DNA of 64,000 nt. Source: a virus (Duplodnaviria; Caudoviricetes). The notes under the pieces were generated by a model that was not told the origin of the DNA, searched no databases, and saw only the letters and a program-made list of their open reading frames with translations. The stretch is from IMG/VR virus record IMGVR_UViG_3300017914_002346, one strand, 5' to 3'. Of the stretch, positions 27-63,720 are shown one piece after another (position 1 is the first letter of the stretch; each line of letters opens with the position of its first letter). Both the position numbers and the translations under genes were made by a program.

Positions 27-2132
27 TTAAGCTCCTGCTACCTCACTAAATGATACTCCAGTTCTCACAGCAACAAAGTTCAGTGTAATGAAGTTAATTG
101 AGCGAGCTGGCTTCAGGTAGATATCAGCTACGAATTGATTAGAGTCGATAACCTGACCTGTGTTATTAGATGTATCACAAACAACCTTAAAGTCAGTTAA
201 ACCTCTTCTTGCTTGTACTTCAGCAAGAAATGGCTCAATAGCATTAACGAATGTTCTTCTTGTCAAGTCATCGTTAAACTCGAACAATTGGAACTTAGCA
301 GCTGTTGCAATTGCTTTTTCAAGAACAATGAACAATCTACGTACGTTAATTCTATCAAACGCAGAAGGCCTAGACAATGCTGTCTTATCACCGTATAACA
401 GAGTACCCTGACCTCTAAAGGTTACGATAGGGTTAATTCTGTTAGGATAGAGCTGATCTCTATCTGTTTGATTTGGATTGAATGATAATTTAACAACGTT
501 CTGGATAAACCCTCTGTTTAAACCAGCAGGTGAATACCAAGCTTCGTTAGTAAATTCTGTTCTTGCTGTTAAACCTGCTGTATCAGGGTTAATTGGCATC
601 CAGAAATACTCGTCGTTATATCTATCATACTGTCTCTTCCAGCTTGAATCGAATACAGCATATGAAGTAGAGTTAATGTCTGAGAAATAGTCAATAACTT
701 TAGTTGCTGTTGGATTGTTTACAGCTGCAGAATAGCTAGGTGATAAGAACGCTATAGCATCTTTCCTTTTCTCTGCAATTGTTATAACATGTTTTTGTAC
801 TGTTTTCGATCTTTCACCAGTAATAAGTAGATTTACATCAATAACCTGATCATCGTTTAATAGGTCATAAGCAGTTGTATAGTTACCATCAGTAATAGAT
901 GAACCATCATTACCACCACCTAATGTATATCTTCTTAAACCAGTTAAGCTTACATTTGTTAACAAATACTTAAATCTATTTGATGTAGCTAAGTTTGTTA
1001 ATGTATCACCAATTGAACTTAAAGCAGTACCACCTGAACCATCAGAGTCAATAGTAGATGATTGTGCTTTGGTTTCTTCATTAAGAAGATAAACCCAATT
1101 AGAAGCATCATTAACTGCATCTACATAGAAGTTACCTGCACCGTCTGCTGTTTTACTATTTTTAGCTTTAGATAAGTATGCATATGTTTCTAATGTTTCA
1201 TTTGCTGTACCGGTAATCTTTGTATCTGTAGTATAGATAACAACATGAACTTCATCGAATAATGTGTTCGTGTAATTACCCGCCCATGTTGATGTACCTG
1301 GTCTTGTATCGAACAAATCAGCGCCTGTAGTGTTACCATATAGCTTATAATTCTTAAAGTCAGAATCGTTTATAGAAGCATCCATGATATAGATACCAAT
1401 ACTATTTCCTAACTCACCAGGGAATCTAGCATATACTGAACCGTTAACAAGTGTTGATTTTTCTACTTCAAAGTCATCAAAGTTATTAATTTGAGCTGAA
1501 GTAATTCTAGTTGTTGTACTTGCACTTGTATTTGACAAGAATGTAAATGTTACGCCGTTTACTGTCTGTGCAGCTGGTAAGGTAATACCTGTTGCAGAAT
1601 ATTTTAATGTGGGGTCTACAATACCTGCAATACCATCTGAGTCAGCAGTAACTGATGAGAAACCATCACTATCCATTGCTTCTCTCATTGCATCAAGTAC
1701 TGAATCTAATGTTAATGCATCAGCACTAAATGAAACTTCTGTTGTTCCGTCTACCTTTACATCAAATCCTGATGCAGAAGGTGTACCTGATAATACAACT
1801 GAAATTGTTGAAGAAGAACCAACAACCGGCTCTGATGCACTATTTCTTGCACCATCAGAGATTGCTCTAACTACTTGTAATTGATTTGCATAACCAAGGA
1901 AGTTAGCTGCTGCGTACCAATCATCTCTTGTACTTGAGGCCGCGTTTGTTGAAACTTTTGGGTATCCAAATTTAGCGAGAAGATCTTTCTCTGAAGATAC
2001 CGTTGTTACTTCTAACGCTGGACCCCATTCGAAAATACCAGCAAAGCCACCAATAGACGTTGCTACTGCTGGAATAATGTTGGTAAGATCTTTCTCTACG
2101 ATTTGTACACCTGGACTAACTAAAAATGCCAT
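27..2132 (-). CDS. gp18: Contractile tail sheath protein
   Basis: N-terminus FLVSPGVQIVEKDLT..F.WGP; C-terminal WYSPAGLNRG, LYGDKT, FDRINVRRLF, FEFND, KPARSINFITLNFVA typical of T4-like sheath. Confidence 0.97.
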   Translation of the reverse strand: MAFLVSPGVQIVEKDLTNIIPAVATSIGGFAGIFEWGPALEVTTVSSEKDLLAKFGYPKVSTNAASSTRDDWYAAANFLGYANQLQVVRAISDGARNSASEPVVGSSSTISVVLSGTPSASGFDVKVDGTTEVSFSADALTLDSVLDAMREAMDSDGFSSVTADSDGIAGIVDPTLKYSATGITLPAAQTVNGVTFTFLSNTSASTTTRITSAQINNFDDFEVEKSTLVNGSVYARFPGELGNSIGIYIMDASINDSDFKNYKLYGNTTGADLFDTRPGTSTWAGNYTNTLFDEVHVVIYTTDTKITGTANETLETYAYLSKAKNSKTADGAGNFYVDAVNDASNWVYLLNEETKAQSSTIDSDGSGGTALSSIGDTLTNLATSNRFKYLLTNVSLTGLRRYTLGGGNDGSSITDGNYTTAYDLLNDDQVIDVNLLITGERSKTVQKHVITIAEKRKDAIAFLSPSYSAAVNNPTATKVIDYFSDINSTSYAVFDSSWKRQYDRYNDEYFWMPINPDTAGLTARTEFTNEAWYSPAGLNRGFIQNVVKLSFNPNQTDRDQLYPNRINPIVTFRGQGTLLYGDKTALSRPSAFDRINVRRLFIVLEKAIATAAKFQLFEFNDDLTRRTFVNAIEPFLAEVQARRGLTDFKVVCDTSNNTGQVIDSNQFVADIYLKPARSINFITLNFVAVRTGVSFSEVAGA

Positions 2133-2159
2133 TGTGAACTCCTGTATAAACTCTTTCTT

Positions 2160-2167
2160 TATTTATT
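2160..2167 (-). promoter_or_regulatory. T4-type late promoter candidate (AATAAATA) upstream of gp18
   Basis: One mismatch to TATAAATA, intergenic, about 28 nt upstream of the ATG. Confidence 0.6.
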
Positions 2168-2172
2168 TTTTC

Positions 2173-3495
2173 CTAAACCCTTCTGATGATGAAGCTACCA
2201 GCATCAAAGGTCTCTATAACTTCCGCATTAAATGTCATATCTGTAAAGTCATCTTTAAATCTAAAATGTATTGAATCATCAGATGCTAATCCTGAATCTA
2301 AATCAATATACATCTTATCAATATATTGCATTGCAAGTGAGTTGCTGTTTACTGAATATATAATAAATCTTATTACGTTTTCAAATGCTGTGCCTTCAGC
2401 AACAACAAACTCTTGACTTACAATTTCTCCGCCACCTAAACCACTAATAGCCCACTTAAATGTAGTTTCTTCTGATAAAGTAGCACCTGTCTGTACATAA
2501 TCTACTGCAATAATATCTGAATCAGATGTAACAACTGCAGCAGGCGGGTTAATAGTATTTGATGAACCTACTCCTAATAATTTTTCTAGTGCTGCAATTC
2601 TTGTTAAATGTGAATCAGTTTCTTTTGTAATTGAAGTGTGTAGTGAATCACTATCTAAGTCAGATCCACCTATTCTGTTTAGATTAATAGTTCTAACAAT
2701 TCTATCTGAATCAAAGTGATCTGAATCTTCTAGTCTAGTTAATCTAGTTCTAATAATTGTAATTCTGTCTCTTGTATAACCTTCTTCTGAATCAAAGTCA
2801 TCTTCAACTACATTTAATCTTCCGCTAATATGTTGTAGTTTCTCTTCATCAGAATCTAGTCTTCTGTAAATATCTGTTAAATCAAGATTTTCAGAATCAA
2901 TATCAGATCTCAAAGCTCTAACTTCTAATGATTCTGAATCCATATCAGATCTAAGTTTTGCTATATCTTCTTCGTTCTGAGTAACTTTTTCTAATAATCT
3001 TCCATCACTATCTAAAGTAGATACAATATTTCTAATTCTTTCTGCATCTGAATCTGCATTACGTTTAAGATGCTCAATAGCAATCATATCACTATCAAGA
3101 CGTCTAATAATATCTAACAATTCTGTCTGATCAGAATCAAGTAAGGTTTGTAATTCGTCTATTCTCTTTTGTAAATGTTGAATGACAGTAGAGTCGGAAT
3201 CTCTATCTGACATTAATTGATCTACATCATTTCTAAGAGTTGAAACTACTGCTAAATCAGAATCAGTAAAGAGACTATTCTCTCTAACCATACTTCTAAT
3301 TTGATCAGAATCAAATCCTGAACCTCCACTTCCAGCAGAATGTTCATTAATAAGATCAACAATGTAATCCGAGTCTATATTGACTCGAAATACACCTTCG
3401 TAATCACTATTCTCATTATAATCAACAATGATTCCAGGGCCGGCTTCGACCCTGACCATCATGGGATAAAAATCTGAATCAAAATTGTAAGCCAT
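2173..3495 (-). CDS. DSD-rich coiled-coil virion protein (fibre/whisker-like), 440 aa
   Basis: Heptad pattern with DSD/DSE often 14 aa apart (about 17 copies by hand count); shares the GFDSDQI module with neighbouring fibre genes. Confidence 0.65.
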   Translation of the reverse strand: MAYNFDSDFYPMMVRVEAGPGIIVDYNENSDYEGVFRVNIDSDYIVDLINEHSAGSGGSGFDSDQIRSMVRENSLFTDSDLAVVSTLRNDVDQLMSDRDSDSTVIQHLQKRIDELQTLLDSDQTELLDIIRRLDSDMIAIEHLKRNADSDAERIRNIVSTLDSDGRLLEKVTQNEEDIAKLRSDMDSESLEVRALRSDIDSENLDLTDIYRRLDSDEEKLQHISGRLNVVEDDFDSEEGYTRDRITIIRTRLTRLEDSDHFDSDRIVRTINLNRIGGSDLDSDSLHTSITKETDSHLTRIAALEKLLGVGSSNTINPPAAVVTSDSDIIAVDYVQTGATLSEETTFKWAISGLGGGEIVSQEFVVAEGTAFENVIRFIIYSVNSNSLAMQYIDKMYIDLDSGLASDDSIHFRFKDDFTDMTFNAEVIETFDAGSFIIRRV

Positions 3496-3535: not shown

Positions 3536-6073
3536 CTAGAGTTCATACTCTGCAGTTGGTGGTGTAAAGTTAGCAGTGTATCTTGCAAGACCTCTAGTAA
3601 ATCTTAAATCTTGTATGTATCCATGGAATTGATTGTTAGATAAATTATATCCGTTAGCACCTATGACAGGCGCGGCAACTCCATGATTATAACCATTTGT
3701 ATCTGAATACGTACCATCACTTACACCATCAGTATACAAAGTTGTTGTTCCATTATTTCTAACTAATGCAATATGATACCAAGTATCTACAGATAAGACA
3801 CTACCGGTAATTCTATTAGCTTGCTGAGCATATAATTTTATTCCAGCGCTAGAGTCATGAGTAATAGTTATATATGCACCGTTAGTGTTTCTAGGTCTAG
3901 TATCAAATATTGTCATACTATGATCAACTGCATTTAAGCGCATCCAAAATTCTATAGTAAAGTCATCTATTCCTCCTACACCAACTATACCTTTATTGTT
4001 ATTAGTATTAGTTTCATTTTCCCCAATAATATAATCACCATTTCCATCAAAATAAATTGCAGAAGACGTTGTAAATTTTCTTTCTGTAGTTGAAGCTATA
4101 ACATTACCAACAGTTCTAAAAGTGATACTACCGGTAGCATCATAGATATTAGTATCACTTTTATTGTTCATAATAAAAACAGTATTAGTATCAAAAGTAA
4201 CAGGTTCTGTAGGAACATCAATATAATCTCCTACTGTGTAAAGAGCTGTACCTTTAGTAATCTTTACATCAGCTATATAACCGTCAACATAGTTATTAAC
4301 ACCTCTATTAACTCCTATTTGTATATTGTCATCTGTAGAATAGTTTACTGTATCTGCAATATCACTTACCGCTCTAATACCATTGACCCACATTTGTGAC
4401 ACTGATGATTTTCTCTGTACTACAACATGATGCCATGCATCTCTTACGCCTAGTCCAGTAGTAGAATCTTGATTTCCTGTCCCTCTAGCATATCTAAATT
4501 TATCACTAGAGTAATAAATTTGCCACGTATTTCCTGATGAACCTGCATCAGTGGAGCTTATAAAAGGATCGTTGGCAGCACTAGGATTTGTTTCTGGTCT
4601 CCACCATAATTCAACAGTAAAGTCTCCAGTACCAAAATTGCCTATACCTGTGCCTGCAGCTGTTTTTACATAGTCTCCGTCACCATCCATGTATAAAGAA
4701 CCACCGTTAGTGCCCGGTATCCAAGGTTCATAATTATATGGCCCAAACGGGTATGTATTAGGAAAACTATTATTTGCTAGGGCAATTCTATTTGTTGATT
4801 TATCAATGTGACATGGTGCACCACATCCTAAAAATTGAGTATTAGTTATTGCTGTTAATGGTTCTGTTGGAGGGGTAAATGCACCAGTATATACAGCTGA
4901 GCCTATGACTACTCTTAAATCTCGTATGTAGCCTGTGTAGTATGCACCGTTACCTCCACCATTTCTAAAACCATAACCAATTCTCAATCTCGGGTTAGCA
5001 TCAGTATAACCACCACTAATAGCGAGACTTGATTGCTCGACCCCATCTACATATGATTTTAATGTACCTCCATTTCTTACAATGGCAATGTGATACCATG
5101 TTCTATTACTTACGGATGATACTAAAGTTTCCGCTGATTCTAAATTCCAAGTTGAATTATCTGATGATGAATAGAAAGTAAGGTTACCGCTAGCAACGTA
5201 AATTAGTAACGGACCTCTTAATACATCAGATGGAGCAAGTTCCAGTACAGTGCTTGTATTATACCAGTTTGTAGAGTATACCCAACACTCAACTGTCCAA
5301 TCATCGCTTCCAAACTTTAAGTTAGCATTATTATCTGTTTCTAATCTATCATCTGTACCATCAAACCATGTACTATAACCACCTGAACGATATGGTGATA
5401 AGGATGAAGATTGCGTTGAGCCGGCTCTTGTAAATAGTATCCCATCTGAATTTTCAGAATCTAGATAGACTAGGTCACCGTTGGCTATATTATTACCTGT
5501 AGCTCTCATTAACATAGTAGTGTAAGCAGAATTATCTATTATATTACTAAATGATAATGTGAATGATGAAACCGCATCTGTTTGATTAACACCATCTGAA
5601 GCTCTAAATGTAACACTACCCGTATTGGATGCTGATGGCACTCCGTTTTCACTGTCAGGTGTTACAGTAAAAATTCTACCATTATCAGAATCTTTTGTTA
5701 TTGTTGCAAAAGTGTCAAAATCACTATCTGTAATAGCGGTGAATGTTATTGGCAATCCTTCAGAATCAACTGCATTAATAGTAATAGTTGTAGCAGTACC
5801 ATCATTATTAAGTTCATATGAACCTGCAGGTGAAGTTGTGTAATAAGGTGAAGTGTTAATAAGAGCAATATTATACCAACCAGAACCTGACCATAGGTAT
5901 AATCTATTAGTTGCTGTTACGTAGCCTTGGTCTCCTTGGGTGTTACCGCTTACAGGTAGATCATCTGTACTTGACACCACAATCATTTCTGTTAGATCAG
6001 CAGTCACGTAATTTTTATTGATTGTATTATTATCGTTAATACTTCTAGATAAAGCTCTGGATTTACTTGTCAT
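3536..6073 (-). CDS. Virion protein with three LamG/concanavalin A-like domains, 845 aa
   Basis: Three units with D(F/W)T(V/I)E.W ... W.H(I/V)A.VR ... GYI.D.R ... YT..FTPP; N-terminal module shared with two neighbours. Confidence 0.8.
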   Translation of the reverse strand: MTSKSRALSRSINDNNTINKNYVTADLTEMIVVSSTDDLPVSGNTQGDQGYVTATNRLYLWSGSGWYNIALINTSPYYTTSPAGSYELNNDGTATTITINAVDSEGLPITFTAITDSDFDTFATITKDSDNGRIFTVTPDSENGVPSASNTGSVTFRASDGVNQTDAVSSFTLSFSNIIDNSAYTTMLMRATGNNIANGDLVYLDSENSDGILFTRAGSTQSSSLSPYRSGGYSTWFDGTDDRLETDNNANLKFGSDDWTVECWVYSTNWYNTSTVLELAPSDVLRGPLLIYVASGNLTFYSSSDNSTWNLESAETLVSSVSNRTWYHIAIVRNGGTLKSYVDGVEQSSLAISGGYTDANPRLRIGYGFRNGGGNGAYYTGYIRDLRVVIGSAVYTGAFTPPTEPLTAITNTQFLGCGAPCHIDKSTNRIALANNSFPNTYPFGPYNYEPWIPGTNGGSLYMDGDGDYVKTAAGTGIGNFGTGDFTVELWWRPETNPSAANDPFISSTDAGSSGNTWQIYYSSDKFRYARGTGNQDSTTGLGVRDAWHHVVVQRKSSVSQMWVNGIRAVSDIADTVNYSTDDNIQIGVNRGVNNYVDGYIADVKITKGTALYTVGDYIDVPTEPVTFDTNTVFIMNNKSDTNIYDATGSITFRTVGNVIASTTERKFTTSSAIYFDGNGDYIIGENETNTNNNKGIVGVGGIDDFTIEFWMRLNAVDHSMTIFDTRPRNTNGAYITITHDSSAGIKLYAQQANRITGSVLSVDTWYHIALVRNNGTTTLYTDGVSDGTYSDTNGYNHGVAAPVIGANGYNLSNNQFHGYIQDLRFTRGLARYTANFTPPTAEYEL

Positions 6074-8601: not shown

Positions 8602-8603
8602 AA

Positions 8604-24424: not shown

Positions 24425-24496
24425 AAAAACCTCCAATAATAATTTATAATGTATTGTTAGAAGCCTGTTTTACGAACGAGAAGCTACTCTCTAAGT

Positions 24497-24511
24497 TATT
24501 TATATTAAATA
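24497..24511. promoter_or_regulatory. Back-to-back late promoters: TATAAATA on minus (24504-24497, toward gp16) and ATTAAATA on plus (24504-24511, toward the enzyme operon)
   Basis: Both motifs lie in the divergent intergenic gap; the plus-strand match is weaker. Confidence 0.55.
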
Positions 24512-24516
24512 TTAAT

Positions 24517-37620: not shown

Positions 37621-37630
37621 AATCTAATCC

Positions 37631-48744: not shown

Positions 48745-48752
48745 TATTTATT
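48745..48752 (-). promoter_or_regulatory. Late promoter candidate AATAAATA
   Basis: Between the gp8 stop and the ATG at 48728. Confidence 0.55.
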
Positions 48753-55342: not shown

Positions 55343-55746
55343 TATCTAAGCCTTTTAAGTACTGTTTCAAAATCAGTAACAATATTTTTGCTTAATATTC
55401 TATATTGTAAGTTAATATGATAAGCATTCTGATCTTGTAAATCTTCTATGAATAAATTAAGAATTTCTATTCTAGGTTCATGATTTTGCAAAGTCTCTTT
55501 GATAGCGCTTCTTATTTCTTCAATAGTAATAGGATCCGCTAACTCAAAAAGTAAACCTCTAATATTACAGCCAAACAAAGGATTGAAAGGTCTTTCATAA
55601 TAATTTGTATTAATCAAGTTTTTTACGCTTTGATTAATCGCATTTACATCAGACTTAGTTCCTATATCTCCTGTTATTGGGTTATTTGAAAAAGAGATAT
55701 CAAAATCTTTAAATACATTTTTTGTTTCAAACGTTTGTTGTGCCAT
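55342..55746 (-). CDS. gp25: Baseplate wedge subunit (sheath initiator)
   Basis: FKDFDISF..NP, AINQSVKNLI.T...ERPFNP.FG, HEPRI. Confidence 0.93.
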   Translation of the reverse strand: MAQQTFETKNVFKDFDISFSNNPITGDIGTKSDVNAINQSVKNLINTNYYERPFNPLFGCNIRGLLFELADPITIEEIRSAIKETLQNHEPRIEILNLFIEDLQDQNAYHINLQYRILSKNIVTDFETVLKRLR

Positions 55747-55805: not shown

Positions 55806-57275
55806 ATGTCTGGTAGAAAAAACCACGGAAACAACGCAAAAAGGTTTGACGTAAACGCTTTCTATGCTAATCTTAGAAAAGCTAAAGTATTAGAATTACT
55901 TGATAAAGACGGAAACACCCCATACGACTCAGATGCTATAGACAACAGTGTATGGGAATATGCTGCATACCTTTACAACGATATTAATAACTTAGGAATT
56001 CTATCATATTTTGATTCAGATTCATTTAGACATGATTCAGATGGTAGTGGAGAAAATGGTTTTGGTGATCCTATCACTAGAACAGCAGCGGTTACTAAAG
56101 TTTATAATCCATTAAGACGTTTTCTATATTCAGTAGATAATCAAGATGGTATTGACGATTCTGATGATGTTATTACTTCTGGGTTTAGAAGAAAATATTA
56201 TACACTTCCTATGTCCGATTCTGAAGGTACTTTAAGACATGTTAATATCTATACGATTCTTAAAGCACACTTTAATAGATGGTTAAAATATGATCCTTAT
56301 GAAAGACGTTATATAGCAAAAAGAGTGTTTGATGTACTGAATGCAGATTCAGATATGAGATACGATTTTGCTAGAATGACTGTTGTAGCTTTCGAAGAAG
56401 ATTCTGATCTTATGAGAAGAGTAGTAGAACAAGTAAGTAATGTTCTACAAAGCGACTCTGAAATAAGAAACGAAATGGTTTTAACTACCATTACAGCTTT
56501 TCAAAATGATTCAGATGCAGCTAGAAGTTTAATTGATATTATTCATAATGTTTATCAAACAGACTCTGATAGAAGAGTTACTTTAATTAATCATGTGATG
56601 ACAGGTTTTGAGAATGACTCAGACTCTGCTAGACGTTTTGAGCAAATAATTAGTAATGTATATCAAAACGATTCTGATACTATAACTAATTTAGTTACTC
56701 TTATTAATAGAGTATATCAACATGATTCTGATAAAATAAGTCAGATTGTAACTTTAATCAATAGAGTATATCAAAACGACTCAGATAAAATTAGTAATTT
56801 AGTTACATTAATTAACAGAGTATATCAAAACGATTCTGACAAAGCAATACATCTTACTCAAACTATTGTTAATGTGTTAGAATCTGATTCAGATTCTGCT
56901 AATAAGCTCACAGAAGTAATTCTAAATCAAATAGAGAACGATTCTGATTATCAGACTATTTTCAGTACTATCTTAAATTCAACACCTATTACACAACTTA
57001 TACCAGGTAGTTCTACAACTAACACTTTCTTAGGTGATTCTGATCATCACTTCCATTTTGGTTTCATAAACAATTTAGTTGTAGATAGTGAATTACGTAT
57101 TACAGATGGCACCGTAGTAGTTGATAGTGATTCTACATTAAAGATAGAAGGTGACATAGAAATAGACAATGTTAAGTTAAAACATGCTATGTTATTTTCT
57201 ATTAAGAATGTAAGTGGTGATCCTGTTATGCAAGGTTACTTATTATCACCTCAAGATTCAGAAATAATTATTTAA
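55806..57275 (+). CDS. DSD-rich protein with twelve 18-aa helical repeats, probably virion-associated, 489 aa
   Basis: Repeats of type VYQNDSDKISNLVTLINR; C-terminus resembles that of the 377-aa fibre-related protein. Confidence 0.7.
   Translation: MSGRKNHGNNAKRFDVNAFYANLRKAKVLELLDKDGNTPYDSDAIDNSVWEYAAYLYNDINNLGILSYFDSDSFRHDSDGSGENGFGDPITRTAAVTKVYNPLRRFLYSVDNQDGIDDSDDVITSGFRRKYYTLPMSDSEGTLRHVNIYTILKAHFNRWLKYDPYERRYIAKRVFDVLNADSDMRYDFARMTVVAFEEDSDLMRRVVEQVSNVLQSDSEIRNEMVLTTITAFQNDSDAARSLIDIIHNVYQTDSDRRVTLINHVMTGFENDSDSARRFEQIISNVYQNDSDTITNLVTLINRVYQHDSDKISQIVTLINRVYQNDSDKISNLVTLINRVYQNDSDKAIHLTQTIVNVLESDSDSANKLTEVILNQIENDSDYQTIFSTILNSTPITQLIPGSSTTNTFLGDSDHHFHFGFINNLVVDSELRITDGTVVVDSDSTLKIEGDIEIDNVKLKHAMLFSIKNVSGDPVMQGYLLSPQDSEIII
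56334..56981 (+). repeat. 12 x 54-bp (18-aa) coding tandem repeat, each with DSD/DSE at positions 5-7
   Basis: Read directly; exact register with no indels. Confidence 0.92.
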
Positions 57276-57715
57276 GATAAGAATAACTCTTTTTCGTCAG
57301 CTCTTCTTTTAACTAATCCTTTGAGTACTTTACCACCTGCTCTACGCCATTTCCAGAACTCATTCGACGCGCCTTCATAATCCCCTCTGTTGAGTTTCGA
57401 TCTGAGCGTACTCGATTGATAGTTTCCAAGACCCACGTTAAATGAAAAAGACACCAAAGCGTCAAATTGACCTTGCGAAAGACTGACTTTTGTGAGTCTT
57501 TCGATACCATCTTCAAAACGGATAAGATCATCATACAAGATTTGATCAATCTCTTCATCTGTGAACTCCTTATTCCATTCTTTTGGTAACTTTTTACCAT
57601 CACCAATAAGATGACCTACACCTACAGTCCACAACCCAATTGGATCTTGATAAGGTTTACGAACAAACCCCTCATGGTGTTTAATCATCTTAATGCACTT
57701 ATCGCTTACCTTCAT
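57272..57715 (-). CDS. Phage lysozyme (GH24) endolysin
   Basis: IKHHEG...PYQDPIGLWTVGVGH (E-x8-D-x5-T), QFDALVSFSFNVG, GLVKRRADEK.LF. Confidence 0.93.
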   Translation of the reverse strand: MKVSDKCIKMIKHHEGFVRKPYQDPIGLWTVGVGHLIGDGKKLPKEWNKEFTDEEIDQILYDDLIRFEDGIERLTKVSLSQGQFDALVSFSFNVGLGNYQSSTLRSKLNRGDYEGASNEFWKWRRAGGKVLKGLVKRRADEKELFLS

Positions 57716-58164
57716 TTTTTAACTGCTCTAGAACCAAACCAGAAAGCAATAATAGCAGCGAATATAGCTTGTGTTTCTTCTGACCATAGAGTCTCTGTTA
57801 CAGCGGCTACATCACCACCATCACGAAGTACCACATAAACTGCTACTCCTTCTACAAAAAAGAAAAGTAAGAAAAACAAATATGTGATTACAGGTCTAAC
57901 AGAAGAACGCATATTGTTAACCCAAGTAGATGCATGGGCAGCTGACTTAGTATCATGTTCTAATAAACCTATCTCTCTTTGAATTTCTGATTGTAAGAGC
58001 ATCGCTTCTGCTTTAGCGTTTTGTAATCTTTCTTCTCTTTCGATCTGAAGAGCCATTACTTCCAATTCATGCTTCTTATCTTTACCATCCTGCCATGTAT
58101 CCAATAATTTAGGTACAAAAGAAGTACCAAACCCTAATGCAGTTGAAATAATAGTTGATATCAT
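57712..58164 (-). CDS. Holin-like membrane protein
   Basis: Hydrophobic segments, SVRPVITY, IIAFWFGSR; overlaps the lysozyme start. Confidence 0.7.
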   Translation of the reverse strand: MISTIISTALGFGTSFVPKLLDTWQDGKDKKHELEVMALQIEREERLQNAKAEAMLLQSEIQREIGLLEHDTKSAAHASTWVNNMRSSVRPVITYLFFLLFFFVEGVAVYVVLRDGGDVAAVTETLWSEETQAIFAAIIAFWFGSRAVKK

Positions 58165-58181
58165 AATAAAACTCCTTTATA

Positions 58182-58189
58182 TATTTATT
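58182..58189 (-). promoter_or_regulatory. Late promoter candidate AATAAATA for the lysis cassette
   Basis: Upstream of an AGGAG RBS and ATG at 58164. Confidence 0.55.
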
Positions 58190-60260
58190 AACTATTAGCA
58201 ATATCATACCAGTCCCTAGTACTTGGTAATATATCAAATCTTTGATTATCTGTTGCAGCTTTATATTCTAAATATAAATCATGATGTTGTTGTGCAATAA
58301 GCATAGCTTCTGGTATTAAAATACCAAAGAAATTAGCTGCTCTGATACTACTCATTGTTGGAATAGTAGCTGATGGTCCGTAAGTATCAGTATAAATCCA
58401 AGCACGAGTCTTTTTAAACTCAAAATAATTTTTCATATAATTTTCTGATCTACCTTCAGGTGTAGTTCTCCAACTCCAATCATCGACTAATTCTGCACCA
58501 TTATTTCCTAATCTAGGATCAGTTGGTGTACCGATATACTTAGTTGGAGTTTGTAGTTCGTAACCTGTATCAAGTATCTTATTTTCTGGCATTTTTATAT
58601 CACCAAAAACTGCAATAACACCTCTAGAGCTACTGTCAGCTAATACAGTTATATAATGACCTATAACAGAATAATAAAATTGTATTTCATTATCAATTTG
58701 TTCTTGTTCTAAGTTAGCTGATATAAACCTTTCATAAAAATCTAAATCATCTTGACTTAAACCTGCATCAAAACCATACTCTCTTACTTTTTGAGTATCA
58801 AGAATACTAATACCTCTTTTAATACCCTCATCTGTATTTCTATATTCTTTTAAAGTTGATTTCATAACCTTATATTGTTCTTTAGATCTAAATTCATCTT
58901 TATAGAACTTACGCATTTTTTTACTTTCAAGGTAATTTCTTGCTTCAAAATTAGGATATTGTTTAGGCAATTCTAGAGATATATTTCCAAAAGGACCTGT
59001 TAAAGAATCAACAAATTTAGATACTATTAATTTATTTGACGCTATAATATCTTCTTCAATTTTATCCAAAGATCTAGTAATAGGTTTTACTTCTTTAGAA
59101 ACCGGGTCTACAACAGCTGCTTCTGGTTTAATTGTTTCAATGGGCTGTTCTTTTGGTTTTACTATTGTTTCTTCAGTTTCTATACTTGTAGTATTTGATT
59201 GTTCAGAGGTAGGTTCTTTAACTTGAGGTGGCTTTGCTTCTACTTCTTTCTTACCTCCTCTAGTGGTAACTTCCGTATCTTCTGGGAAGACTTCACACAA
59301 GTCTAACTGACTAATAGGTGTGGTTGAGGTAAATGCAAGAGGGTCCTGAGCTTGTAAGTTAGGTATTAAACTTGCAGGGTCTGTTAAATTTATACCACTT
59401 GTAAATTCACTTAAAGCACCTGCAGCTATATTAGAAATTGCGCTAGCTGGATCTTTTGCAAAAGTGTTAATAGCATCTAAAGCATTTAAAGCATCTGTTA
59501 AACCACCTATGTTAGTATTTGTTCCTAGTTCAGAAAAAGCGTTATTATTAGCAACTTGAGGAGTAGGAGGTGGTTCTTGAATACCGTATTCTTCTCTAAG
59601 TTTTTGAGCTGTAGCTTCCACTTCAGGAACAAATTCTAAGAATGTATCTATTATTTCCTTCGCTAAAGAATTAAATTGTTTAGGATTTTCTTTTGAATCA
59701 ATTAGTTTTTGCAACTCTTCTTGAAGACTCTTTTTAGGATCTGTATCTTCAATAAGAATAGTCCATCTTACTCTAATTCTATTACCTTCAGTTTCTACCA
59801 AGTATGGCCAGTCAGTATCATCGTTTGGTGTTTCTATACCGTTAGACTCTAATGTTGCAAGTCCATTTAAGATAGCTCTTCTATAACTACCGTATTTTTG
59901 TAGATATACCGCATCATTTCCTACTATAGTGCTTTGTTTAGAAAATAGAAAAGTAGGACCAAGCCAGGGTGATGTCCATTTCTTTTTCTTTTCATCCCAT
60001 ATTTCAGGTGAGTTTATTCTTTTATATGATTTAGATGGTAATGCAATAGGTAATATACCAGTTAATGTATATTCAACATATCTCTTTTTTGCTTCTACTT
60101 TTACATTATTAATCTTTGTGTTTACTTCTGTAGTAGTCTCAGTCATTTTAGCAAGATTAGCTTTTGTAGCCGCGCCACCTTTAACTAAGTTTGCGAGTTC
60201 TTTTTCTTTCTTTTTAATCTCCTCTAGCTCTACACTAGTTACACATCTCTTCTTAGCCAT
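58188..60260 (-). CDS. Hypothetical protein, 690 aa
   Basis: Long ORF directly after the PAAR gene; no family recognised. Confidence 0.7.
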   Translation of the reverse strand: MAKKRCVTSVELEEIKKKEKELANLVKGGAATKANLAKMTETTTEVNTKINNVKVEAKKRYVEYTLTGILPIALPSKSYKRINSPEIWDEKKKKWTSPWLGPTFLFSKQSTIVGNDAVYLQKYGSYRRAILNGLATLESNGIETPNDDTDWPYLVETEGNRIRVRWTILIEDTDPKKSLQEELQKLIDSKENPKQFNSLAKEIIDTFLEFVPEVEATAQKLREEYGIQEPPPTPQVANNNAFSELGTNTNIGGLTDALNALDAINTFAKDPASAISNIAAGALSEFTSGINLTDPASLIPNLQAQDPLAFTSTTPISQLDLCEVFPEDTEVTTRGGKKEVEAKPPQVKEPTSEQSNTTSIETEETIVKPKEQPIETIKPEAAVVDPVSKEVKPITRSLDKIEEDIIASNKLIVSKFVDSLTGPFGNISLELPKQYPNFEARNYLESKKMRKFYKDEFRSKEQYKVMKSTLKEYRNTDEGIKRGISILDTQKVREYGFDAGLSQDDLDFYERFISANLEQEQIDNEIQFYYSVIGHYITVLADSSSRGVIAVFGDIKMPENKILDTGYELQTPTKYIGTPTDPRLGNNGAELVDDWSWRTTPEGRSENYMKNYFEFKKTRAWIYTDTYGPSATIPTMSSIRAANFFGILIPEAMLIAQQHHDLYLEYKAATDNQRFDILPSTRDWYDIANS

Positions 60261-60262
60261 TG

Positions 60263-60559
60263 TTAACCCCCTGCAAACACATTAGGAGACCCAGATGCAG
60301 AAGCATTAGGTACCCAAGATCCGTGGCCGCCTGTAGAGTCTCCTTGTCTATGTACACCTATTCCATTAACAAAAACAGTACCGCTTCCACCTGTAGCAGG
60401 ATCACCACAACTAGTTGCATCTCCAATTCTCACTGTACTAGCATTATTAGTAAACACATTTGATGAACCTGAAGCATAAGCCGTTTGATGAAACGGGTTA
60501 GGTGTTGGTGATGCATGTCCTACGTGACTGTCTAATCCTACTCTAGTTACTGCTGGCAT
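60263..60559 (-). CDS. gp5.4: PAAR-type spike tip protein
   Basis: MPAVTRVG.D.H.GH, GS.NVF.N, RIGD...CG, GS.NVFAGG. Confidence 0.9.
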   Translation of the reverse strand: MPAVTRVGLDSHVGHASPTPNPFHQTAYASGSSNVFTNNASTVRIGDATSCGDPATGGSGTVFVNGIGVHRQGDSTGGHGSWVPNASASGSPNVFAGG

Positions 60560-61839
60560 TAGTTAAGATCTATCCTCGCTGCATCTACGTCTAAGTTACC
60601 AGTAATCTGGGTAGTTTGATCACCAGTAATAGTTTCACTTACATTACCACCTACTGTTTCAGTAATATTTTTATCTACATTAATTATTTGATTTTCTGGG
60701 GTTTCAATAGTCATGTCTTTTCCTGATATAATAGTCATAGTACTCATAGAAGTAGTTGAATGAGCTTTAACAGAAATTTCATCATGATTACCCATTACAA
60801 ATTTGGTTGAATCTCTATTAATAGTAAGATCTTCATTTCCACCTATAGTTGTTTTTCTATCCGAATCAACTATTCTAGTTTCCATTCCACCAACTCTTTG
60901 AACATAATCTACTTTAACATTTGAACCAAAATCTTTACCTATTTCTGTAAAATCAGAATTGTGTATTTTACTATGTCTACTACCTCTGTTAATTCTTTCA
61001 GTTTTATTACCTTCAACTTCTAAGTGATAATTACCCTTTACCAAGGTTCTCATATCACCTTCAACAGTAATGTTAAGATTACCTTTTACGAACATATTAT
61101 TATTTTTAAATGTTACTTCGTAATTATCACCTACAACAGTAGTTGCCATATCGCCATTATGTAACATTTCATAATTAGTTCCTGAATTATGAAACTGTGC
61201 AATTCTTGTTGCACCTGGTGTATCATCCACTTCTAATACATGACCAGTTTCAGATTGTGTAACTTTATTAAAAGGATATACAGGTTTTTCACCACCATGT
61301 ACGTCTGGATAATCCCATGTGTTTCTAGAATAGTAAGTATCACTTTTATCATCTACTAAAGAATTTACTCTAGGTGGAACAGCAGTTTCTACTCCTGTTA
61401 CTCTCTGATTTTCTCTAGCTGTAAAACTAGGATCAATCTCATAAGTAGATGTTCTTGCATGCAGAGGTTGATCAGTACTTGTAGTATAAACTGGATTTAC
61501 ACCTGTACTATCAGAATATGTACCTTCTGGGTCTAAAGTATTAGGTTGAGAAGGAAGTACACCCATAACTAAAGGCTGTTGCATATTTTTACCATCAGTA
61601 AAGAAGCCTACAACCCAGGCACCTTCTACAATACCTGTAGCTGATTGTCCTACTGAACCTGTACCGGCACTATTAGAAGGTAATATCATACTAGCCCATG
61701 GTAAATCATTTACAGATAACTCTTCTTTAGGTACGTCATGAATACCAAAACATCTTACCTTAACTCTACCCATTTCTTCAGGGTCGTTTCTATCTTCTAC
61801 AACACCTACAAACCATACCATTTCGCCTGAATACATCAT
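60559..61839 (-). CDS. gp5: Baseplate hub central spike (OB fold plus beta-helix, no lysozyme domain)
   Basis: WFVGVVEDRNDPEEMGRVKVRCFG.H, LPWA, WVVGFF.DG..QQP, YPFNKV..SETGH..EVDDTPG, 8-residue beta-helix repeats, RIDLN end. Confidence 0.93.
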   Translation of the reverse strand: MMYSGEMVWFVGVVEDRNDPEEMGRVKVRCFGIHDVPKEELSVNDLPWASMILPSNSAGTGSVGQSATGIVEGAWVVGFFTDGKNMQQPLVMGVLPSQPNTLDPEGTYSDSTGVNPVYTTSTDQPLHARTSTYEIDPSFTARENQRVTGVETAVPPRVNSLVDDKSDTYYSRNTWDYPDVHGGEKPVYPFNKVTQSETGHVLEVDDTPGATRIAQFHNSGTNYEMLHNGDMATTVVGDNYEVTFKNNNMFVKGNLNITVEGDMRTLVKGNYHLEVEGNKTERINRGSRHSKIHNSDFTEIGKDFGSNVKVDYVQRVGGMETRIVDSDRKTTIGGNEDLTINRDSTKFVMGNHDEISVKAHSTTSMSTMTIISGKDMTIETPENQIINVDKNITETVGGNVSETITGDQTTQITGNLDVDAARIDLN

Positions 61840-63077
61840 TGTTCGCTACTCTCTAATTGTGACTCTTTACTTAAACCTAACAGCATATTATGTTCATCTC
61901 TACTGTAGATATCTCTTTTTGATGTAATATAATACTTACCTGATACTCTATTATCAATTCTTCTATTCTGTTCAGATTGAGGCTCAGGTGTAGCAATTTC
62001 AAGTTCAATAATTTGACCCACGTCTATTAAAAAATTACCTACAACTTCAATTGTTAAGCTCTGTGATCCGTCAATATTATTGACTTTAATTTTACTTATA
62101 TCATTACTTTTATTAATTGTTCCATCACTATGAATGTTACTAGTTAATATGTCATATTTTGTTAAAGCTGGTTCATACGCATTTGATTTGTATTGTGGAA
62201 AATTATTTAAATGGTTTTCTTTATCAAAATTAGTAAAATAGTTATATACTACTTTATTGTTTGTCTTAGCAATAATATCAGGAGAATAAACTATACCTGA
62301 TATCTTACCTTTTCTCATACTTTCATGAATATTAAATTGATTATTATAGGTTAGTTTTTTAACAGCTCTTAAAGCTAGCTCAGAGTTAGGAGCTTGTTGT
62401 TCTCCTTTTGTACCTACAACTAAATTATAGCTATATTTAAATGCTGGTCTTTCACCATAATTATCTAAAGCTTTCTCTACAGGCATGAAGTTATAATTTA
62501 ATTTTGAATCTTGAAAAAATTTAAATCTAACTTGGTCTTTGGTCCAAACAGCTTTACCAGCTAACCAGTTAAGTGTATGTATTGGAGACCAGTTTGGAAC
62601 TACAACTTTTGTACTATTAGAACTTGGTTCAAAAGTGCCTATAGTGTCTACATCTGTTGCAAATTCATCAAATACTTGTCTTGCTATTTCACTTATATTA
62701 CCATTATATGATTTTATAATTCCTGCGTGTAAAGAAGTAAATGCAAAATGAGAGATGCACTTTAAGCTATACCCTCTTTGACTATCAAAGTTAGACATCT
62801 TTTCTAAACTAATTACCTTTAGAAAAAACTCTCTAGTCTCATCATTAGAACTTAAAGTAATAGATACATTATCTCCACCAGAGATTTTATATCTTTCAAA
62901 AACGTTTTGACTATCCATTATTAAAAGATCAACTGCAGTAGTATCACCATTAATAAAAGTGTTAACGTTTAGTTCTACAAATAAATCAGACACATCAACT
63001 TTAGTAACACCATTACTGATTATTACTTCATCTACTTTTATTCTACCCGGATAAAATTGATAGTCTAAATTACTCAT
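61836..63077 (-). CDS. Baseplate hub protein, gp27-like
   Basis: Lies between gp53 and gp5; VVVPNWSP...NWL, FFQD, GN..IDVGQII, SGKYYIT. Confidence 0.65.
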   Translation of the reverse strand: MSNLDYQFYPGRIKVDEVIISNGVTKVDVSDLFVELNVNTFINGDTTAVDLLIMDSQNVFERYKISGGDNVSITLSSNDETREFFLKVISLEKMSNFDSQRGYSLKCISHFAFTSLHAGIIKSYNGNISEIARQVFDEFATDVDTIGTFEPSSNSTKVVVPNWSPIHTLNWLAGKAVWTKDQVRFKFFQDSKLNYNFMPVEKALDNYGERPAFKYSYNLVVGTKGEQQAPNSELALRAVKKLTYNNQFNIHESMRKGKISGIVYSPDIIAKTNNKVVYNYFTNFDKENHLNNFPQYKSNAYEPALTKYDILTSNIHSDGTINKSNDISKIKVNNIDGSQSLTIEVVGNFLIDVGQIIELEIATPEPQSEQNRRIDNRVSGKYYITSKRDIYSRDEHNMLLGLSKESQLESSEQ

Positions 63078-63720
63078 TTGTTAATTTTCTTAACTCTTTT
63101 TCCATTTGCTGCACCAAATTTGAATTCGGTATTATAATATCTCTTTTCGCTTCGTTTAAATTAAATTCATAAGTAAATATAGAAACAGGAGTTAAGGTAG
63201 GTCTGGTGTATTGTCTATTAAAAGCATCTTTAGTTTCACCAAACTTAGTATCAAAAGAATAATAATTACCGTTAGTGTCTTCAAAATGATGTGGTCTGTA
63301 TTTTACACCGTGTACACCATCTGAGTCTTCGAAATTATTAGAAGTTGAACCTGTAAAATAAATTAACTCTCTAGTATCTACATCTGAAAGAGTAACTTCT
63401 GAATCATTAGGTTTTCTTTGTACTCTATATTTTTCTAATAGAAAACTATCTAACTGTCTTGAAGTTTTAGGCCAGTCATTATAAAGATTCATAATATTGT
63501 TAGCTAACATTATACACCAATGAAACTTAACTGTTCCATAAGTATTAAAACTTATGTGTTCTGGTGTTTCGTTTTCTTTTACATAATATGGTTGAAAGTT
63601 TGTTTGATCTAATAAAACTTTATCTAAAAGAGTTAATCTTGTAGAAAGATTTTTAAACAACCTTACTTTATTATCAGGAAATTGATATTCAATGTAGTTA
63701 AAATTATTAAAGTAGCTCAT
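63070..63720 (-). CDS. gp53: Baseplate wedge subunit
   Basis: MSYFNNF..I.Y, ETPEHIS...YG...HW.IMLANNI...DWP, HH(F)E, YE..LNEAKR.I. Confidence 0.9.
   Translation of the reverse strand: MSYFNNFNYIEYQFPDNKVRLFKNLSTRLTLLDKVLLDQTNFQPYYVKENETPEHISFNTYGTVKFHWCIMLANNIMNLYNDWPKTSRQLDSFLLEKYRVQRKPNDSEVTLSDVDTRELIYFTGSTSNNFEDSDGVHGVKYRPHHFEDTNGNYYSFDTKFGETKDAFNRQYTRPTLTPVSIFTYEFNLNEAKRDIIIPNSNLVQQMEKELRKLTNE

What the first reader, a model, noticed from the sequence alone, without database searches (positions are those of the whole stretch)
27..63720. A D-S-D/E tripeptide written into unrelated virion proteins: candidate modification sequon
Seen: DSD/DSE recurs in proteins of unrelated folds (sheath, gp14, gp15, gp7, gp8, gp53, gp9/10-like, all fibres). 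Hand counts give about 17 in the 440-aa protein and 21 in the 489-aa protein, against under 1 expected if D and S are each ~8%. Terminase (617 aa), holin and lysozyme have none, and I found one in the whole enzyme cluster. Ser is encoded by both TCN and AGY, so selection acts on the peptide. Known: staphylococcal Ser-Asp repeats are O-GlcNAcylated by SdgA/SdgB, and some actinobacteriophages glycosylate their virions. Inference: DSD/E is a recognition site for a virion-wide covalent coat, or an acidic metal-binding coat.
Basis: partly seen in the sequence, partly recalled or inferred. Interest (0 to 1): 0.96.

Follow-up and report, generated by a model that had tools for sequence, protein, structure and literature searches.

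The report
Asp-Ser-Asp tag on phage tail

Summary
D-S-[D/E] occurs 245 times in 20 outer tail, neck, baseplate and fibre proteins, against about 17 in shuffles. It occurs once in 17 enzyme and terminase proteins and once in 10 inner-baseplate and lysis proteins. Only the exact order counts, and serine codons follow background use.

The excess is specific to one clade. Relatives with terminase at least 67% identical have it; cyanophage-like relatives and Pelagibacter phage Mosig do not. It marks the tail exterior, not the whole virion: in a 109-kb relative the capsid protein, portal, tube and scaffold lack it.

New here:
- The motif sits in at least four structural settings: core position d of a heptad-phased trimeric coiled coil, another phase in 18-residue repeats, helix N-caps, and variable loops. 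So the tripeptide itself appears to be selected.
- The enzyme island in the window is unlikely to be the writer. The closest relative lacks it at this site yet keeps the motifs, and Mosig has a similar island without the motif.

Best reading (0.4): a serine-centred tag read by an unidentified factor, probably a modifying enzyme. The main rival is divalent-cation binding. This scan found the same signal before on other genomes of this clade.

The parts
27..2132 (-). Tail sheath (gp18-like), 4 DS[DE].
   Evidence: phrog_23, E 4e-121. 4 observed against 0.61. In clade orthologs there are 3-7 motifs in indel-rich loops with turnover; 11 outgroup sheaths have 0-1.
2173..3495 (-). 440-aa coiled-coil fibre (fibritin-like), 17 DS[DE], mostly 14 or 21 residues apart.
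   Evidence: It has no PHROG family; the only Pfam matches are generic coiled-coil ones below cut-off.
3536..9755 (-). Three paralogous outer proteins (845, 843 and 383 aa) sharing an N-terminal domain. In that domain a DS[DE] precedes nearly every short strand (5, 7 and 6 motifs). Two of them carry Laminin_G_3 domains.
   Evidence: The AlphaFold model of the 383-aa protein was too poor to use (pLDDT 40.5).
9749..14293 (-). 1514-aa fibre protein, 43 DS[DE].
   Evidence: 43 observed against 2.6. Matches phrog_677 and phrog_38058, tail-fibre families.
14354..16369 (-). 671-aa fibre protein, 21 DS[DE].
   Evidence: 21 observed against 1.45.
16402..17613 (-). 403-aa fibre protein, 10 DS[DE]. Residues 172-300 were modelled as a parallel in-register trimer, with the third motif residue at core position d.
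   Evidence: ipSAE 0.74, best control 0.00; the mark was reached by 21 of 30 solved pairs and 0 of 23 single chains; contact agreement at least 91%; pLDDT at least 83. Heptad profile.
17615..22189 (-). 1524-aa fibre protein, 45 DS[DE], with both 14-residue arrays and GF-DSD-QIV units.
   Evidence: 45 observed against 3.0. Contexts, spacing.
22218..24436 (-). Terminase large and small subunits, 0 DS[DE] (negative control).
24454..36742 (.). Variable enzyme island, 1 DS[DE] in 16 proteins. It holds radical SAM proteins, an Asp/Asn beta-hydroxylase-like protein, a B12-radical SAM, a carbamoyltransferase, SPASM radical SAMs, two weak PP-loop ATPases, one GT-A glycosyltransferase (34321-35040), a GT8-like lead (29195-29974) and a methyltransferase-like lead (33753-34337).
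   Evidence: The island is absent at this place in the closest relative G004/L012. A similar island lies in phage Mosig, which has no motif excess.
36724..40160 (-). Three outer baseplate or short-fibre proteins of 298, 377 and 467 aa (the last with a gp9/10-type N-terminus), carrying 4, 10 and 7 DS[DE].
   Evidence: In the 57%-identical ortholog of the 377-aa protein, 7 of 10 motifs are kept while the flanks differ.
40175..42860 (-). gp15-like sheath stabiliser (5 motifs), gp14-like neck protein (6) and a 255-aa gp9-like protein (1).
   Evidence: phrog_227, phrog_460 and phrog_679. Motif conservation.
43041..48728 (-). 1895-aa VrlC-like structural protein, 5 DS[DE] against 1.3.
   Evidence: phrog_358. 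Orthologs carry 8-11 motifs.
48752..50179 (-). gp8 baseplate wedge protein, 8 DS[DE]: 3 at helix N-termini and 5 in loops or turns.
   Evidence: AlphaFold model pLDDT 88.7. Top PDB match is T4 gp8 1N7Z, E 3.7e-11. 58 homologs at 34% identity or more carry 2-10 motifs; 51 more distant ones carry 0-2.
50169..53537 (-). gp7-like baseplate protein, 18 DS[DE].
   Evidence: 18 observed against 1.27. 26 of 36 motif-ortholog comparisons keep the motif.
53537..55746 (-). gp6 and gp25 inner baseplate wedge, 0 DS[DE] (internal controls).
   Evidence: phrog_219 and phrog_261. The gp6 orthologs in G001 and G003 also have 0.
55806..57275 (+). 489-aa repeat protein on the opposite strand, 21 DS[DE], 11 of the spacings exactly 18 residues.
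   Evidence: No PHROG family. Relatives carry one or two DS[DE]-rich genes beside gp25.
57272..63077 (-). Endolysin, holin-like protein, 690-aa unknown protein, PAAR protein, gp5-like hub and gp48-like protein: 0, 0, 0, 0, 1 and 0 DS[DE].
63070..63720 (-). gp53-like wedge protein, 2 DS[DE] against 0.12.

Best explanation
D-S-[D/E] is a clade-specific short linear motif kept by selection on the peptide in the exposed parts of the tail machine: sheath outer loops, neck, outer baseplate and all fibres. It sits in several unrelated structural settings with almost free flanks, and sites turn over while their density is kept. The tripeptide itself therefore seems to be what is read, by a trans-acting factor.

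The most likely reader is an enzyme that modifies the central serine, by O-glycosylation or another O-linked group. It would act in the infected cell before or during tail assembly. The writer is not identified. It may lie elsewhere in the phage genome or be encoded by the host.

Shown: the enrichment, its exact order, the clade limits, the protein classes and the structural settings. Inferred: that a factor reads the motif, and that the reading is a modification.
For: 1. Exact order and chemistry. DSD is 196 observed against 13.0 expected and DSE 50 against 6.2. DT[DE] is 4 against 15.1, and ESD, DDS, SDD, DAD, DGD and DND are not enriched. Serine codons match background.
2. Flanks in 88 non-repeat motifs are almost unconstrained.
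3. At least four structural settings:
- position d of unbroken heptads in 74 arrayed motifs;
- a different phase in the 18-residue arrays;
- a helix N-cap in GF-DSD-QIV units;
- loops, turns and helix starts in gp8.
4. Motif columns are better conserved than their flanks, which are more variable than the protein average. The motif is kept in 95 of 159 ortholog comparisons, and all three residues are kept about equally.
5. Sheath and gp8 orthologs gain the motif at loops where outgroups have Gly/Asn turns or gaps, with site turnover but steady numbers.
6. The clade boundary is sharp. Clade loci have 391 against 67.0, outgroup loci 54 against 97.5 and Mosig 18 against 24.7. This fits a discrete gain of a reader.
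7. Precedents: SdgB glycosylates the minimal peptide DSD (PMC8561734); phage virions can be glycosylated (Freeman 2023, PMC10527164, cited); a host enzyme can modify a phage tail protein (PMC13445384, abstract seen).
Against: - No writer was found. No GT-B family PF00534 and no KpsS/C family PF05159 occur in four clade contigs.
- The island in the window is hypervariable. It is missing at this place in the closest relative, which keeps the motifs.
- Its enzyme classes and its two transferase homologs also occur in Mosig, which has no motif excess.
- In the main fibre arrays the third residue is buried at a fixed core position. That points to a structural role, and it means an enzyme would have to read the chain before trimerisation.
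- Cytoplasmic proteins do not avoid the motif beyond the baseline seen in other phages (6 against 16.0, baseline ratio 0.59, P = 0.17).
- Thr never replaces Ser, which is unusual for many O-glycosyltransferases.
- No chemistry is available.
Confidence: 0.4

Rival explanations
1. DS[DE] is a divalent-cation (Ca2+ or Mg2+) binding unit. In the fibres the third residue forms rings of three carboxylates in the core of a trimeric coiled coil every 14-21 residues. In globular proteins, neighbouring DS[DE] loops form acidic sites. In sea water these sites would be filled, and they would stabilise or switch the tail exterior.
For: - The trimer model has ipSAE 0.74 against a best control of 0.00 (mark reached by 21 of 30 solved pairs and 0 of 23 single chains; contact agreement at least 91%; pLDDT at least 83). 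D200, D214, E235, D249, D263 and D277 are in the interface every 14 or 21 residues.
- Independently, the heptad profile of 74 motifs shows 77-88% hydrophobic residues at -10, -7, -3, +4, +7 and +11, with the acidic residue exactly at d.
- 61 of 151 fibre spacings are multiples of 7.
- Non-repeat motifs cluster: 46% of spacings are 6-17 residues, against 16% for random placement.
- Precedent: the NxxQD layer of the P22 tail needle gp26 binds Ca2+ in a trimer core (PMC13580157).
Against: - A carboxylate site should tolerate other middle residues and E at the first position. Yet DAD, DGD, DND, DTD and ESD are not enriched, and Ser is as conserved as the two acids.
- In the 18-residue arrays and the GF-DSD-QIV units the motif is in other registers, so 'D at d' is not general.
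- A single DSD loop offers few ligands.
- The model does not report any ion position, and the calibration of the score held no ligands.
Confidence: 0.27
2. The enzyme island inside the window (24454-36742) is the writer of a DSD modification.
For: - The island lies inside the late structural region.
- One protein is a GT-A glycosyltransferase (phrog_1962, E 1e-12). One is a GT8-like lead and one a methyltransferase-like lead.
- An Asp/Asn beta-hydroxylase-like protein passes the Pfam cut-off.
- Three of these proteins, plus the hydroxylase-like one, have 28-37% identical counterparts in the islands of G001-G003.
Against: - The closest relative (terminase 87% identical) has no enzyme gene between its last fibre gene and the small terminase. 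Yet it keeps 5 of 6, 4 of 5, 7 of 7 and 7 of 10 motifs in the orthologs.
- L003 has an AMP-binding enzyme at that place instead.
- Mosig carries three Asp_Arg_Hydrox proteins, a carbamoyltransferase, radical SAM proteins and homologs of both transferases at the same ~31% identity, with no motif excess.
- Such variable islands are a known feature of this phage group and are thought to act on host surface glycans (PMC7029224).
Confidence: 0.08
3. There is no reader. The excess comes from repeat amplification in fibre genes plus the ordinary liking of Asp and Ser for helix starts and turns, fixed in this lineage by history.
For: - 157 of 245 motifs lie in tandem repeat families that expand by duplication.
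- The repeat family is small: only 45 representative clusters match in 1.84 billion, of which 41 carry 5-50 motifs each.
- In gp8, 3 of 8 motifs are helix N-caps and the rest are turns.
- An earlier report of this scan on another genome (e1-5360407) read Asp-Ser pairs this way.
Against: - 88 motifs in 14 non-repeat proteins still exceed every one of 1000 shuffles (7.1 +/- 2.7, maximum 17).
- Helix-cap and turn preferences exist in all phages, yet outgroup orthologs of the same folds have 0-1 motifs.
- Other good cap or turn tripeptides (DTD, NSD, DSN, DGD) are not enriched.
- Motifs are kept while their flanks diverge.
Confidence: 0.1
4. DS[DE] is a docking motif for a protein partner. Candidates are stowage of folded-back fibres on sheath, neck and baseplate (possibly bridged by cations), or recognition by a tail-assembly chaperone.
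For: The set of motif-bearing parts (fibres, sheath exterior, neck, outer baseplate) matches the surfaces that fibres touch in T4-type tails (from general knowledge of T4, not tested here). Head, tube and inner baseplate lack the motif. Cytoplasmic proteins show no avoidance.
Against: The motif also lies inside the fibres' own coiled-coil cores.
Confidence: 0.1

Closest known systems
SdgB/SdgA O-GlcNAcylation of staphylococcal Ser-Asp repeat adhesins (PMC8561734)
   Same: The enzyme recognises and modifies serine in the minimal peptide D-S-D. The targets are exposed, elongated surface proteins.
   Different: - Those targets are long disordered SDSDSD tracts; here the tripeptides are isolated or heptad-phased, in folded proteins.
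- The enzyme there is a GT-B with a DUF1975 insert; none was found here.
- The host there is Gram-positive.
- No modification is shown here.
Mycobacteriophage virion glycosylation by phage glycosyltransferases (Freeman et al. 2023, PMC10527164; reference seen, details from my own knowledge)
   Same: Phage-encoded transferases near structural genes are proposed or shown to modify virion proteins.
   Different: - As I recall, capsid and tail-tube subunits are the targets there. Here the capsid and tube lack the motif and the tail exterior carries it.
- No short sequon of this kind is described there, to my knowledge.
Polar core layers of trimeric coiled coils: N at d anion sites, and the Ca2+-binding NxxQD layer of P22 tail needle gp26 (PMC13580157)
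   Same: A polar residue recurs at a fixed core position of a parallel trimeric phage or adhesin coiled coil with unbroken heptads. The P22 layer binds Ca2+.
   Different: - The residue here is Asp or Glu at d, always preceded by Asp-Ser on the outer face.
- No ion is shown.
- The same tripeptide also occurs outside coiled coils and in other registers.
General O-glycosylation motif of Bacteroidota, D-(S/T)-(A/I/L/V/M/T) (PMC8550257)
   Same: A three-residue sequon starting with Asp and then the modified Ser, spread over many unrelated exposed proteins.
   Different: - The third residue here is acidic, not aliphatic.
- Thr is excluded.
- D-S-[AILVMT] is at expectation (46 against 46.8) and D-T-[AILVMT] below it (22 against 43.0).
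- That system works in the periplasm.
Host recognition cluster of pelagimyophages and cyanomyophages (PMC7029224)
   Same: A hypervariable island with tail fibres, glycosyltransferases and other enzymes inside the structural region of marine T4-like phages. The window's island is of this kind, and Mosig has a comparable one.
   Different: - That paper ascribes the enzymes to changes of the host surface and does not report a tripeptide excess.
- Mosig, a cultured member, has none.

Membership tests
SdgB/SdgA-type Ser-Asp repeat glycosylation | Acceptor contains D-S-D with the central Ser as the modified residue. | tested here: met
   There are 195 DSD and 50 DSE in the outer proteins. This shows only that the motif is present, not that it is modified.
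SdgB/SdgA-type Ser-Asp repeat glycosylation | GT-B (GT4) glycosyltransferase with a DUF1975 insert encoded with the targets. | tested here: not met
   No such Pfam match in any island protein of the window. PF00534 is absent from G001-G004. These are fragments, and the rest of this genome was not searched.
SdgB/SdgA-type Ser-Asp repeat glycosylation | Long tandem SD dipeptide tracts. | tested here: not met
   The motifs are single tripeptides spaced 14, 18 or 21 residues apart, or scattered in loops.
SdgB/SdgA-type Ser-Asp repeat glycosylation | GlcNAc on serine. | not testable with these tools
   Needs mass spectrometry.
Phage virion glycosylation (mycobacteriophage type) | Phage glycosyltransferase genes next to structural genes. 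| tested here: inconclusive
   One GT-A (34321-35040, phrog_1962) and one GT8-like lead (29195-29974). Both lie in a variable island that the closest relative lacks at this place.
Phage virion glycosylation (mycobacteriophage type) | Glycan attached to virion proteins. | not testable with these tools
   No chemistry is available.
Bacteroidota general O-glycosylation | Sequon D-(S/T)-(A/I/L/V/M/T). | tested here: not met
   D-S-[AILVMT] is 46 against 46.8 and D-T-[AILVMT] 22 against 43.0.
Ion-binding polar core layers of trimeric coiled coils | Parallel, in-register trimeric coiled coil. | tested here: met
   Model only: ipSAE 0.74, best control 0.00; the mark was reached by 21 of 30 solved pairs and 0 of 23 single chains; contact agreement at least 91%; pLDDT at least 83; same-residue contacts such as 228 with 228.
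Ion-binding polar core layers of trimeric coiled coils | Polar residue at a fixed core position with an unbroken heptad phase. | tested here: met
   In 74 arrayed motifs the third residue is at d. This does not hold in the 18-residue arrays or the N-cap units.
Ion-binding polar core layers of trimeric coiled coils | Ion bound in the layer. | not testable with these tools
   The complex tool gives no ion position.
T4-type baseplate protein gp8 (example of a conserved fold carrying the motif) | gp8 fold. | tested here: met
   Model pLDDT 88.7; T4 gp8 1N7Z at E 3.7e-11, probability 1.00; PF09215 on the homologs.
Host recognition cluster of marine T4-like phages | Hypervariable island of fibres and enzymes inside the structural region. 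| tested here: met
   The content differs between the window, L012, L003, L018 and G001-G003. Compared with PMC7029224.

The most novel reading that the evidence does not exclude
A T4-like phage lineage has a proteome-wide serine sequon. Nearly every exposed loop and fibre repeat of its tail, about 245 sites in this window, would be covalently modified at D-S-D/E by a still unknown phage or host enzyme. That would give the tail, but not the head, a chemical coat. Alternatively the same tripeptide is a new minimal cation-binding unit that also forms acidic core layers in trimeric fibres.
Probability: 0.35. Interest if true: 0.9.

Novelty: new variant of a known kind. Interest (0 to 1): 0.74.

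Why it matters
Short sequons that mark a whole class of virion proteins are not described for T4-like phages, as far as I know. If the serines are modified, this abundant marine clade would show that tailed phages can coat their host-contact machinery chemically. The gp8 cluster P0018 alone lies on 89 contigs, so the clade is common. A coat of this kind would bear on host recognition, particle stability in sea water and escape from host surface defences.

If instead the motif binds cations, the fibres would be a natural case of repeated acidic core layers in trimeric coiled coils, which is of interest for coiled-coil design.

Either way the signal is strong, cleanly bounded in phylogeny and testable with one recombinant fragment.

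Tried and rejected
- **DNA-level motif:** rejected. TCT, TCA and AGT are all used at background ratios.
- **Plain acidic composition:** rejected. DDS, SDD and ESD are not enriched.
- **Repeats only:** rejected. Non-repeat proteins have 88 motifs against 7.1.
- **Island as writer:** weakened.
- **Asp beta-hydroxylase link:** weakened. Mosig is annotated with three such genes and has no motif excess.
- **SdgB-like GT-B and KpsS/C-like transferases:** not found in four clade contigs.
- **Avoidance of the motif in cytoplasmic proteins as a sign of a promiscuous enzyme:** inconclusive. Observed 6 against 16.0, but the baseline ratio in other phages is 0.59 (P = 0.17). Extra loci sit at the baseline.
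- **AlphaFold model of the 383-aa paralog (8604-9755):** unusable, pLDDT 40.5.
- **Pfam and PHROG searches of the fibre repeats:** no family.
- **Host assignment through GTDB genome contigs with a clade gp8:** no hit.
- **Walking the 150-kb contig beyond the window:** failed. The sheath and the 440-aa protein are not on record letter for letter. No whole genome is held.
- **tRNA scan:** no tRNA in the window.
- **Literature search for 'DSD motif' in tail fibres:** nothing found.

Full report
**What the window is.** The window is the late structural region of a T4-like myovirus. The large terminase is 50-54% identical to those of cyanomyoviruses and has no closer relative among 50,697 phage records. 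PHROG, Pfam and fold matches identify these proteins:
- the sheath, gp15, gp14 and a gp9/10-type protein;
- a VrlC-like giant protein;
- gp8, gp7, gp6, gp25, gp53 and gp5, plus PAAR and gp48-like proteins;
- an endolysin and a holin-like protein;
- several very large fibre proteins.

No whole genome is held. The protein database shows that the source contig is 150 kb long.

**The observation.** DS[DE] occurs as follows:

| Protein group | Observed | Shuffles |
|---|---|---|
| 6 fibre or repeat proteins | 157 | 9.8 +/- 3.0 |
| 14 non-repeat outer proteins | 88 | 7.1 +/- 2.7, maximum 17 in 1000 |
| 10 inner-baseplate, hub and lysis proteins | 1 | 1.7 |
| 17 enzyme and terminase proteins | 1 | 2.6 |

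- An unbiased ranking of all tripeptides puts DSD first and DSE second.
- The signal is order-specific. ESD, DDS, SDD, DTD, DAD, DGD, DND, NSD and DSN are at or below expectation.
- After D-S only D (195 against 11.9) and E (50 against 5.1) are enriched. D-T-[D/E] is depleted, at 4 against 15.1.
- Serine codons of both families are used at background ratios, so the constraint is on the peptide.
- In non-repeat proteins the flanking positions are nearly free.

**Where it is and is not.** 'Virion-wide' is too broad.
- In the window gp6 (601 aa), gp25, gp5, the PAAR protein, the gp48-like protein and a 690-aa protein have 0-1 motifs.
- In the 109-kb relative G001, 13 outer-tail genes carry 167 motifs against 8.9 expected.
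- Also in G001 the capsid protein has 1, and the portal, the tube and a D/S-rich 701-aa scaffold have 0. About 77 non-structural genes have 3 in all.

The motif therefore marks the exterior of the tail machine, not the head.

**Lineage.**
- Among 80 viral contigs found with the terminase, the 25 with 67-87% identity carry 391 motifs against 67.0 expected. The 55 with about 52-55% identity carry 54 against 97.5.
- In the gp8 family, all 58 homologs down to 34% identity have 2-10 motifs. The 51 more distant ones have 0-2.
- Clade sheaths have 3-7 motifs and outgroup sheaths 0-1.
- Pelagibacter phage Mosig, the only cultured phage with homologs of two island proteins, has 18 against 24.7 genome-wide and essentially none in its tail proteins.

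The boundary is sharp, as expected for a discrete gain.

**Selection.**
- Against orthologs, the motif is retained in 95 of 159 comparisons.
- Its columns are more conserved than the +/-5 flanks. Those flanks are in turn less conserved than the protein average, so the sites lie in variable regions.
- In the 57%-identical ortholog of the 377-aa protein, 7 of 10 motifs persist while the flanks differ.
- D1, S2 and D/E3 are kept about equally (109, 106 and 112 of 159). D and E interchange freely at position 3, and Thr seldom replaces Ser.
- In the sheath and gp8 the motifs lie at indel-rich loops. There the outgroups have Gly/Asn turns or gaps, and sites turn over while their number stays similar.

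**Structural settings.** There are at least four.

1. *Heptad arrays in the fibres.* A model of residues 172-300 of the 403-aa fibre protein as three copies gives a parallel in-register coiled coil.
- The score is ipSAE 0.74 against a best control of 0.00. That mark was reached by 21 of 30 solved pairs and 0 of 23 single chains. The runs agree in at least 91% of contacts, and pLDDT is at least 83. The job carried calcium, which the calibration did not.
- The third residue of every motif (D200, D214, E235, D249, D263, D277) lies in the 3-4-spaced interface.
- A sequence-only profile of 74 motifs spaced 14 or 21 residues apart confirms this. Hydrophobic residues make up 77-88% at -10, -7, -3, +4, +7 and +11, so the acidic residue is at d and Asp-Ser at b and c.
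- 61 of 151 fibre spacings are multiples of 7.
2. *18-residue arrays of the 489-aa protein.* Here the core phase falls on D1/S2, or the helix breaks.
3. *GF-DSD-QIV units.* The motif begins a helix, between a Phe before it and an Ile after it.
4. *Globular proteins.* In a confident gp8 model (pLDDT 88.7; T4 gp8 is the top PDB match), 3 motifs start helices and 5 lie in loops or turns.

The D:E ratio at position 3 is the same in repeat and non-repeat settings. Because one tripeptide is kept in such different settings, the tripeptide itself appears to be the selected object.

**The enzyme island.** Between the small terminase and the outer baseplate genes lie 16 proteins:
- radical SAM enzymes, one of them with a B12 domain;
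- an Asp/Asn beta-hydroxylase-like protein, 30.8 bits against a cut-off of 22.6;
- a carbamoyltransferase;
- one GT-A transferase (phrog_1962);
- a GT8-like lead, a methyltransferase-like lead and two weak PP-loop ATPases.

It is tempting to call this island the writer, but three results speak against that.
- The closest relative (L012/G004, terminase 87% identical) has only one 308-aa beta-rich protein at this place. It keeps the motifs in gp14, gp15 and the outer baseplate proteins, and its own fibres carry 16-43 motifs each.
- Another 87% relative has an AMP-binding enzyme there instead.
- Mosig has three Asp_Arg_Hydrox genes, a carbamoyltransferase, radical SAM genes and homologs of both transferases at about 31% identity. 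That is the same identity level as between sub-clades of the motif-bearing clade, yet Mosig has no motif excess.

The island matches the hypervariable 'host recognition cluster' described for marine T4-like phages (PMC7029224). No GT-B family and no KpsS/C-type family was found in four clade contigs. All four are fragments.

**Reading.** An exact-order, Ser-centred tripeptide with free flanks, in many folds and settings, restricted to exposed tail parts and gained at one node, behaves like a linear motif read by some factor.
- SdgB shows that an enzyme can read exactly D-S-D (PMC8561734).
- A host-encoded enzyme that modifies a phage tail protein is also on record (PMC13445384).

I therefore rank a serine modification first (0.4), with an unknown writer.

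The main rival (0.27) is cation binding. The acidic d layers are a real feature of the arrays, and a Ca2+-binding polar layer is known in the P22 tail needle (PMC13580157). But the strict need for Ser and for Asp at position 1, and the other registers, fit this reading less well.

Other readings:
- Pure repeat history or cap and turn propensity (0.1) fails on the non-repeat excess and on the motif-free outgroup orthologs.
- A docking motif for stowed fibres or a chaperone (0.1) could not be tested.
- A test for avoidance of the motif in cytoplasmic proteins was inconclusive.

**Repeat family.** A search of 1.84 billion representative proteins with the coiled-coil segment found only 45 clusters. 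41 of them carry 5-50 motifs each, so this fibre repeat is confined to a small group.

**Earlier work of this scan.** The same signal was reported before on at least five other genomes of this clade, with the same leading reading and no writer. One note linked it to a conserved sugar-transferase core. Here I find such a trio in G001-G003 and in the window, but not at this place in the closest relative, and equally distant copies occur in Mosig. Another report read Asp-Ser pairs as starts of structural repeats. That holds for part of the fibres but not for the non-repeat proteins.

Noticed in passing
window 24454-36742: The enzyme island holds at least four radical SAM-type proteins (one with a B12 domain, two with SPASM hints), an Asp/Asn beta-hydroxylase-like protein, a NodU/CmcH-type carbamoyltransferase, one GT-A, a GT8-like lead, a methyltransferase-like lead and two weak PP-loop (QueC-like) ATPases. 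Five proteins have no family at all. Its product and target are unknown.
   Followed up: partly
L003:132-1583 (-), L012:8356-9282 (+): At the place of the island, one 87% relative has an AMP-binding (adenylating) enzyme. The other has only a 308-aa beta-rich protein without any family. The slot is hypervariable even among close relatives.
   Followed up: partly
window 3536-9755: Three tandem paralogs share a roughly 230-aa N-terminal domain with an invariant block (YLWSG.GWY.IALIN). They differ in their C-terminal parts. Two carry three Laminin_G_3 / concanavalin-like domains each, so they are likely receptor-binding modules.
   Followed up: partly
window 55806-57275 (+): This is the only large plus-strand gene inside the minus-strand baseplate operon. 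It encodes a 489-aa protein with eleven exact 18-residue spacings of the motif and has no family. Relatives G001 and G003 carry two such genes (650-783 aa) beside gp25.
   Followed up: partly
window 58188-60260 (-): A 690-aa Glu-rich protein between the PAAR protein and the holin-like gene. It has no PHROG or Pfam match and no homolog in G001 or G003. It may be a tape-measure-like or internal protein.
   Followed up: no
G001 (L089): 92146-93138 and 94095-94475 of the contig: Two head-module proteins carry 4 and 2 motifs: one of 330 aa after the portal gene and one of 126 aa. The capsid protein, portal and scaffold carry 0-1. They may be neck or decoration proteins exposed on the outside.
   Followed up: no
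Mosig MT647606.1 54.7-74.4 kb (L100): The cultured Pelagibacter phage Mosig has an island of the same general make-up: three Asp_Arg_Hydrox genes, a carbamoyltransferase, MoaA-like radical SAM genes, aminotransferases and methyltransferases. It could serve as an experimental stand-in for the island chemistry, though not for the motif.
   Followed up: partly
all phage sets examined: DS[DE] is under-represented against composition even in phages without the tag (ratio 0.55-0.73 in Mosig and 55 outgroup loci). Simple composition-based expectations therefore overstate the baseline.
   Followed up: partly
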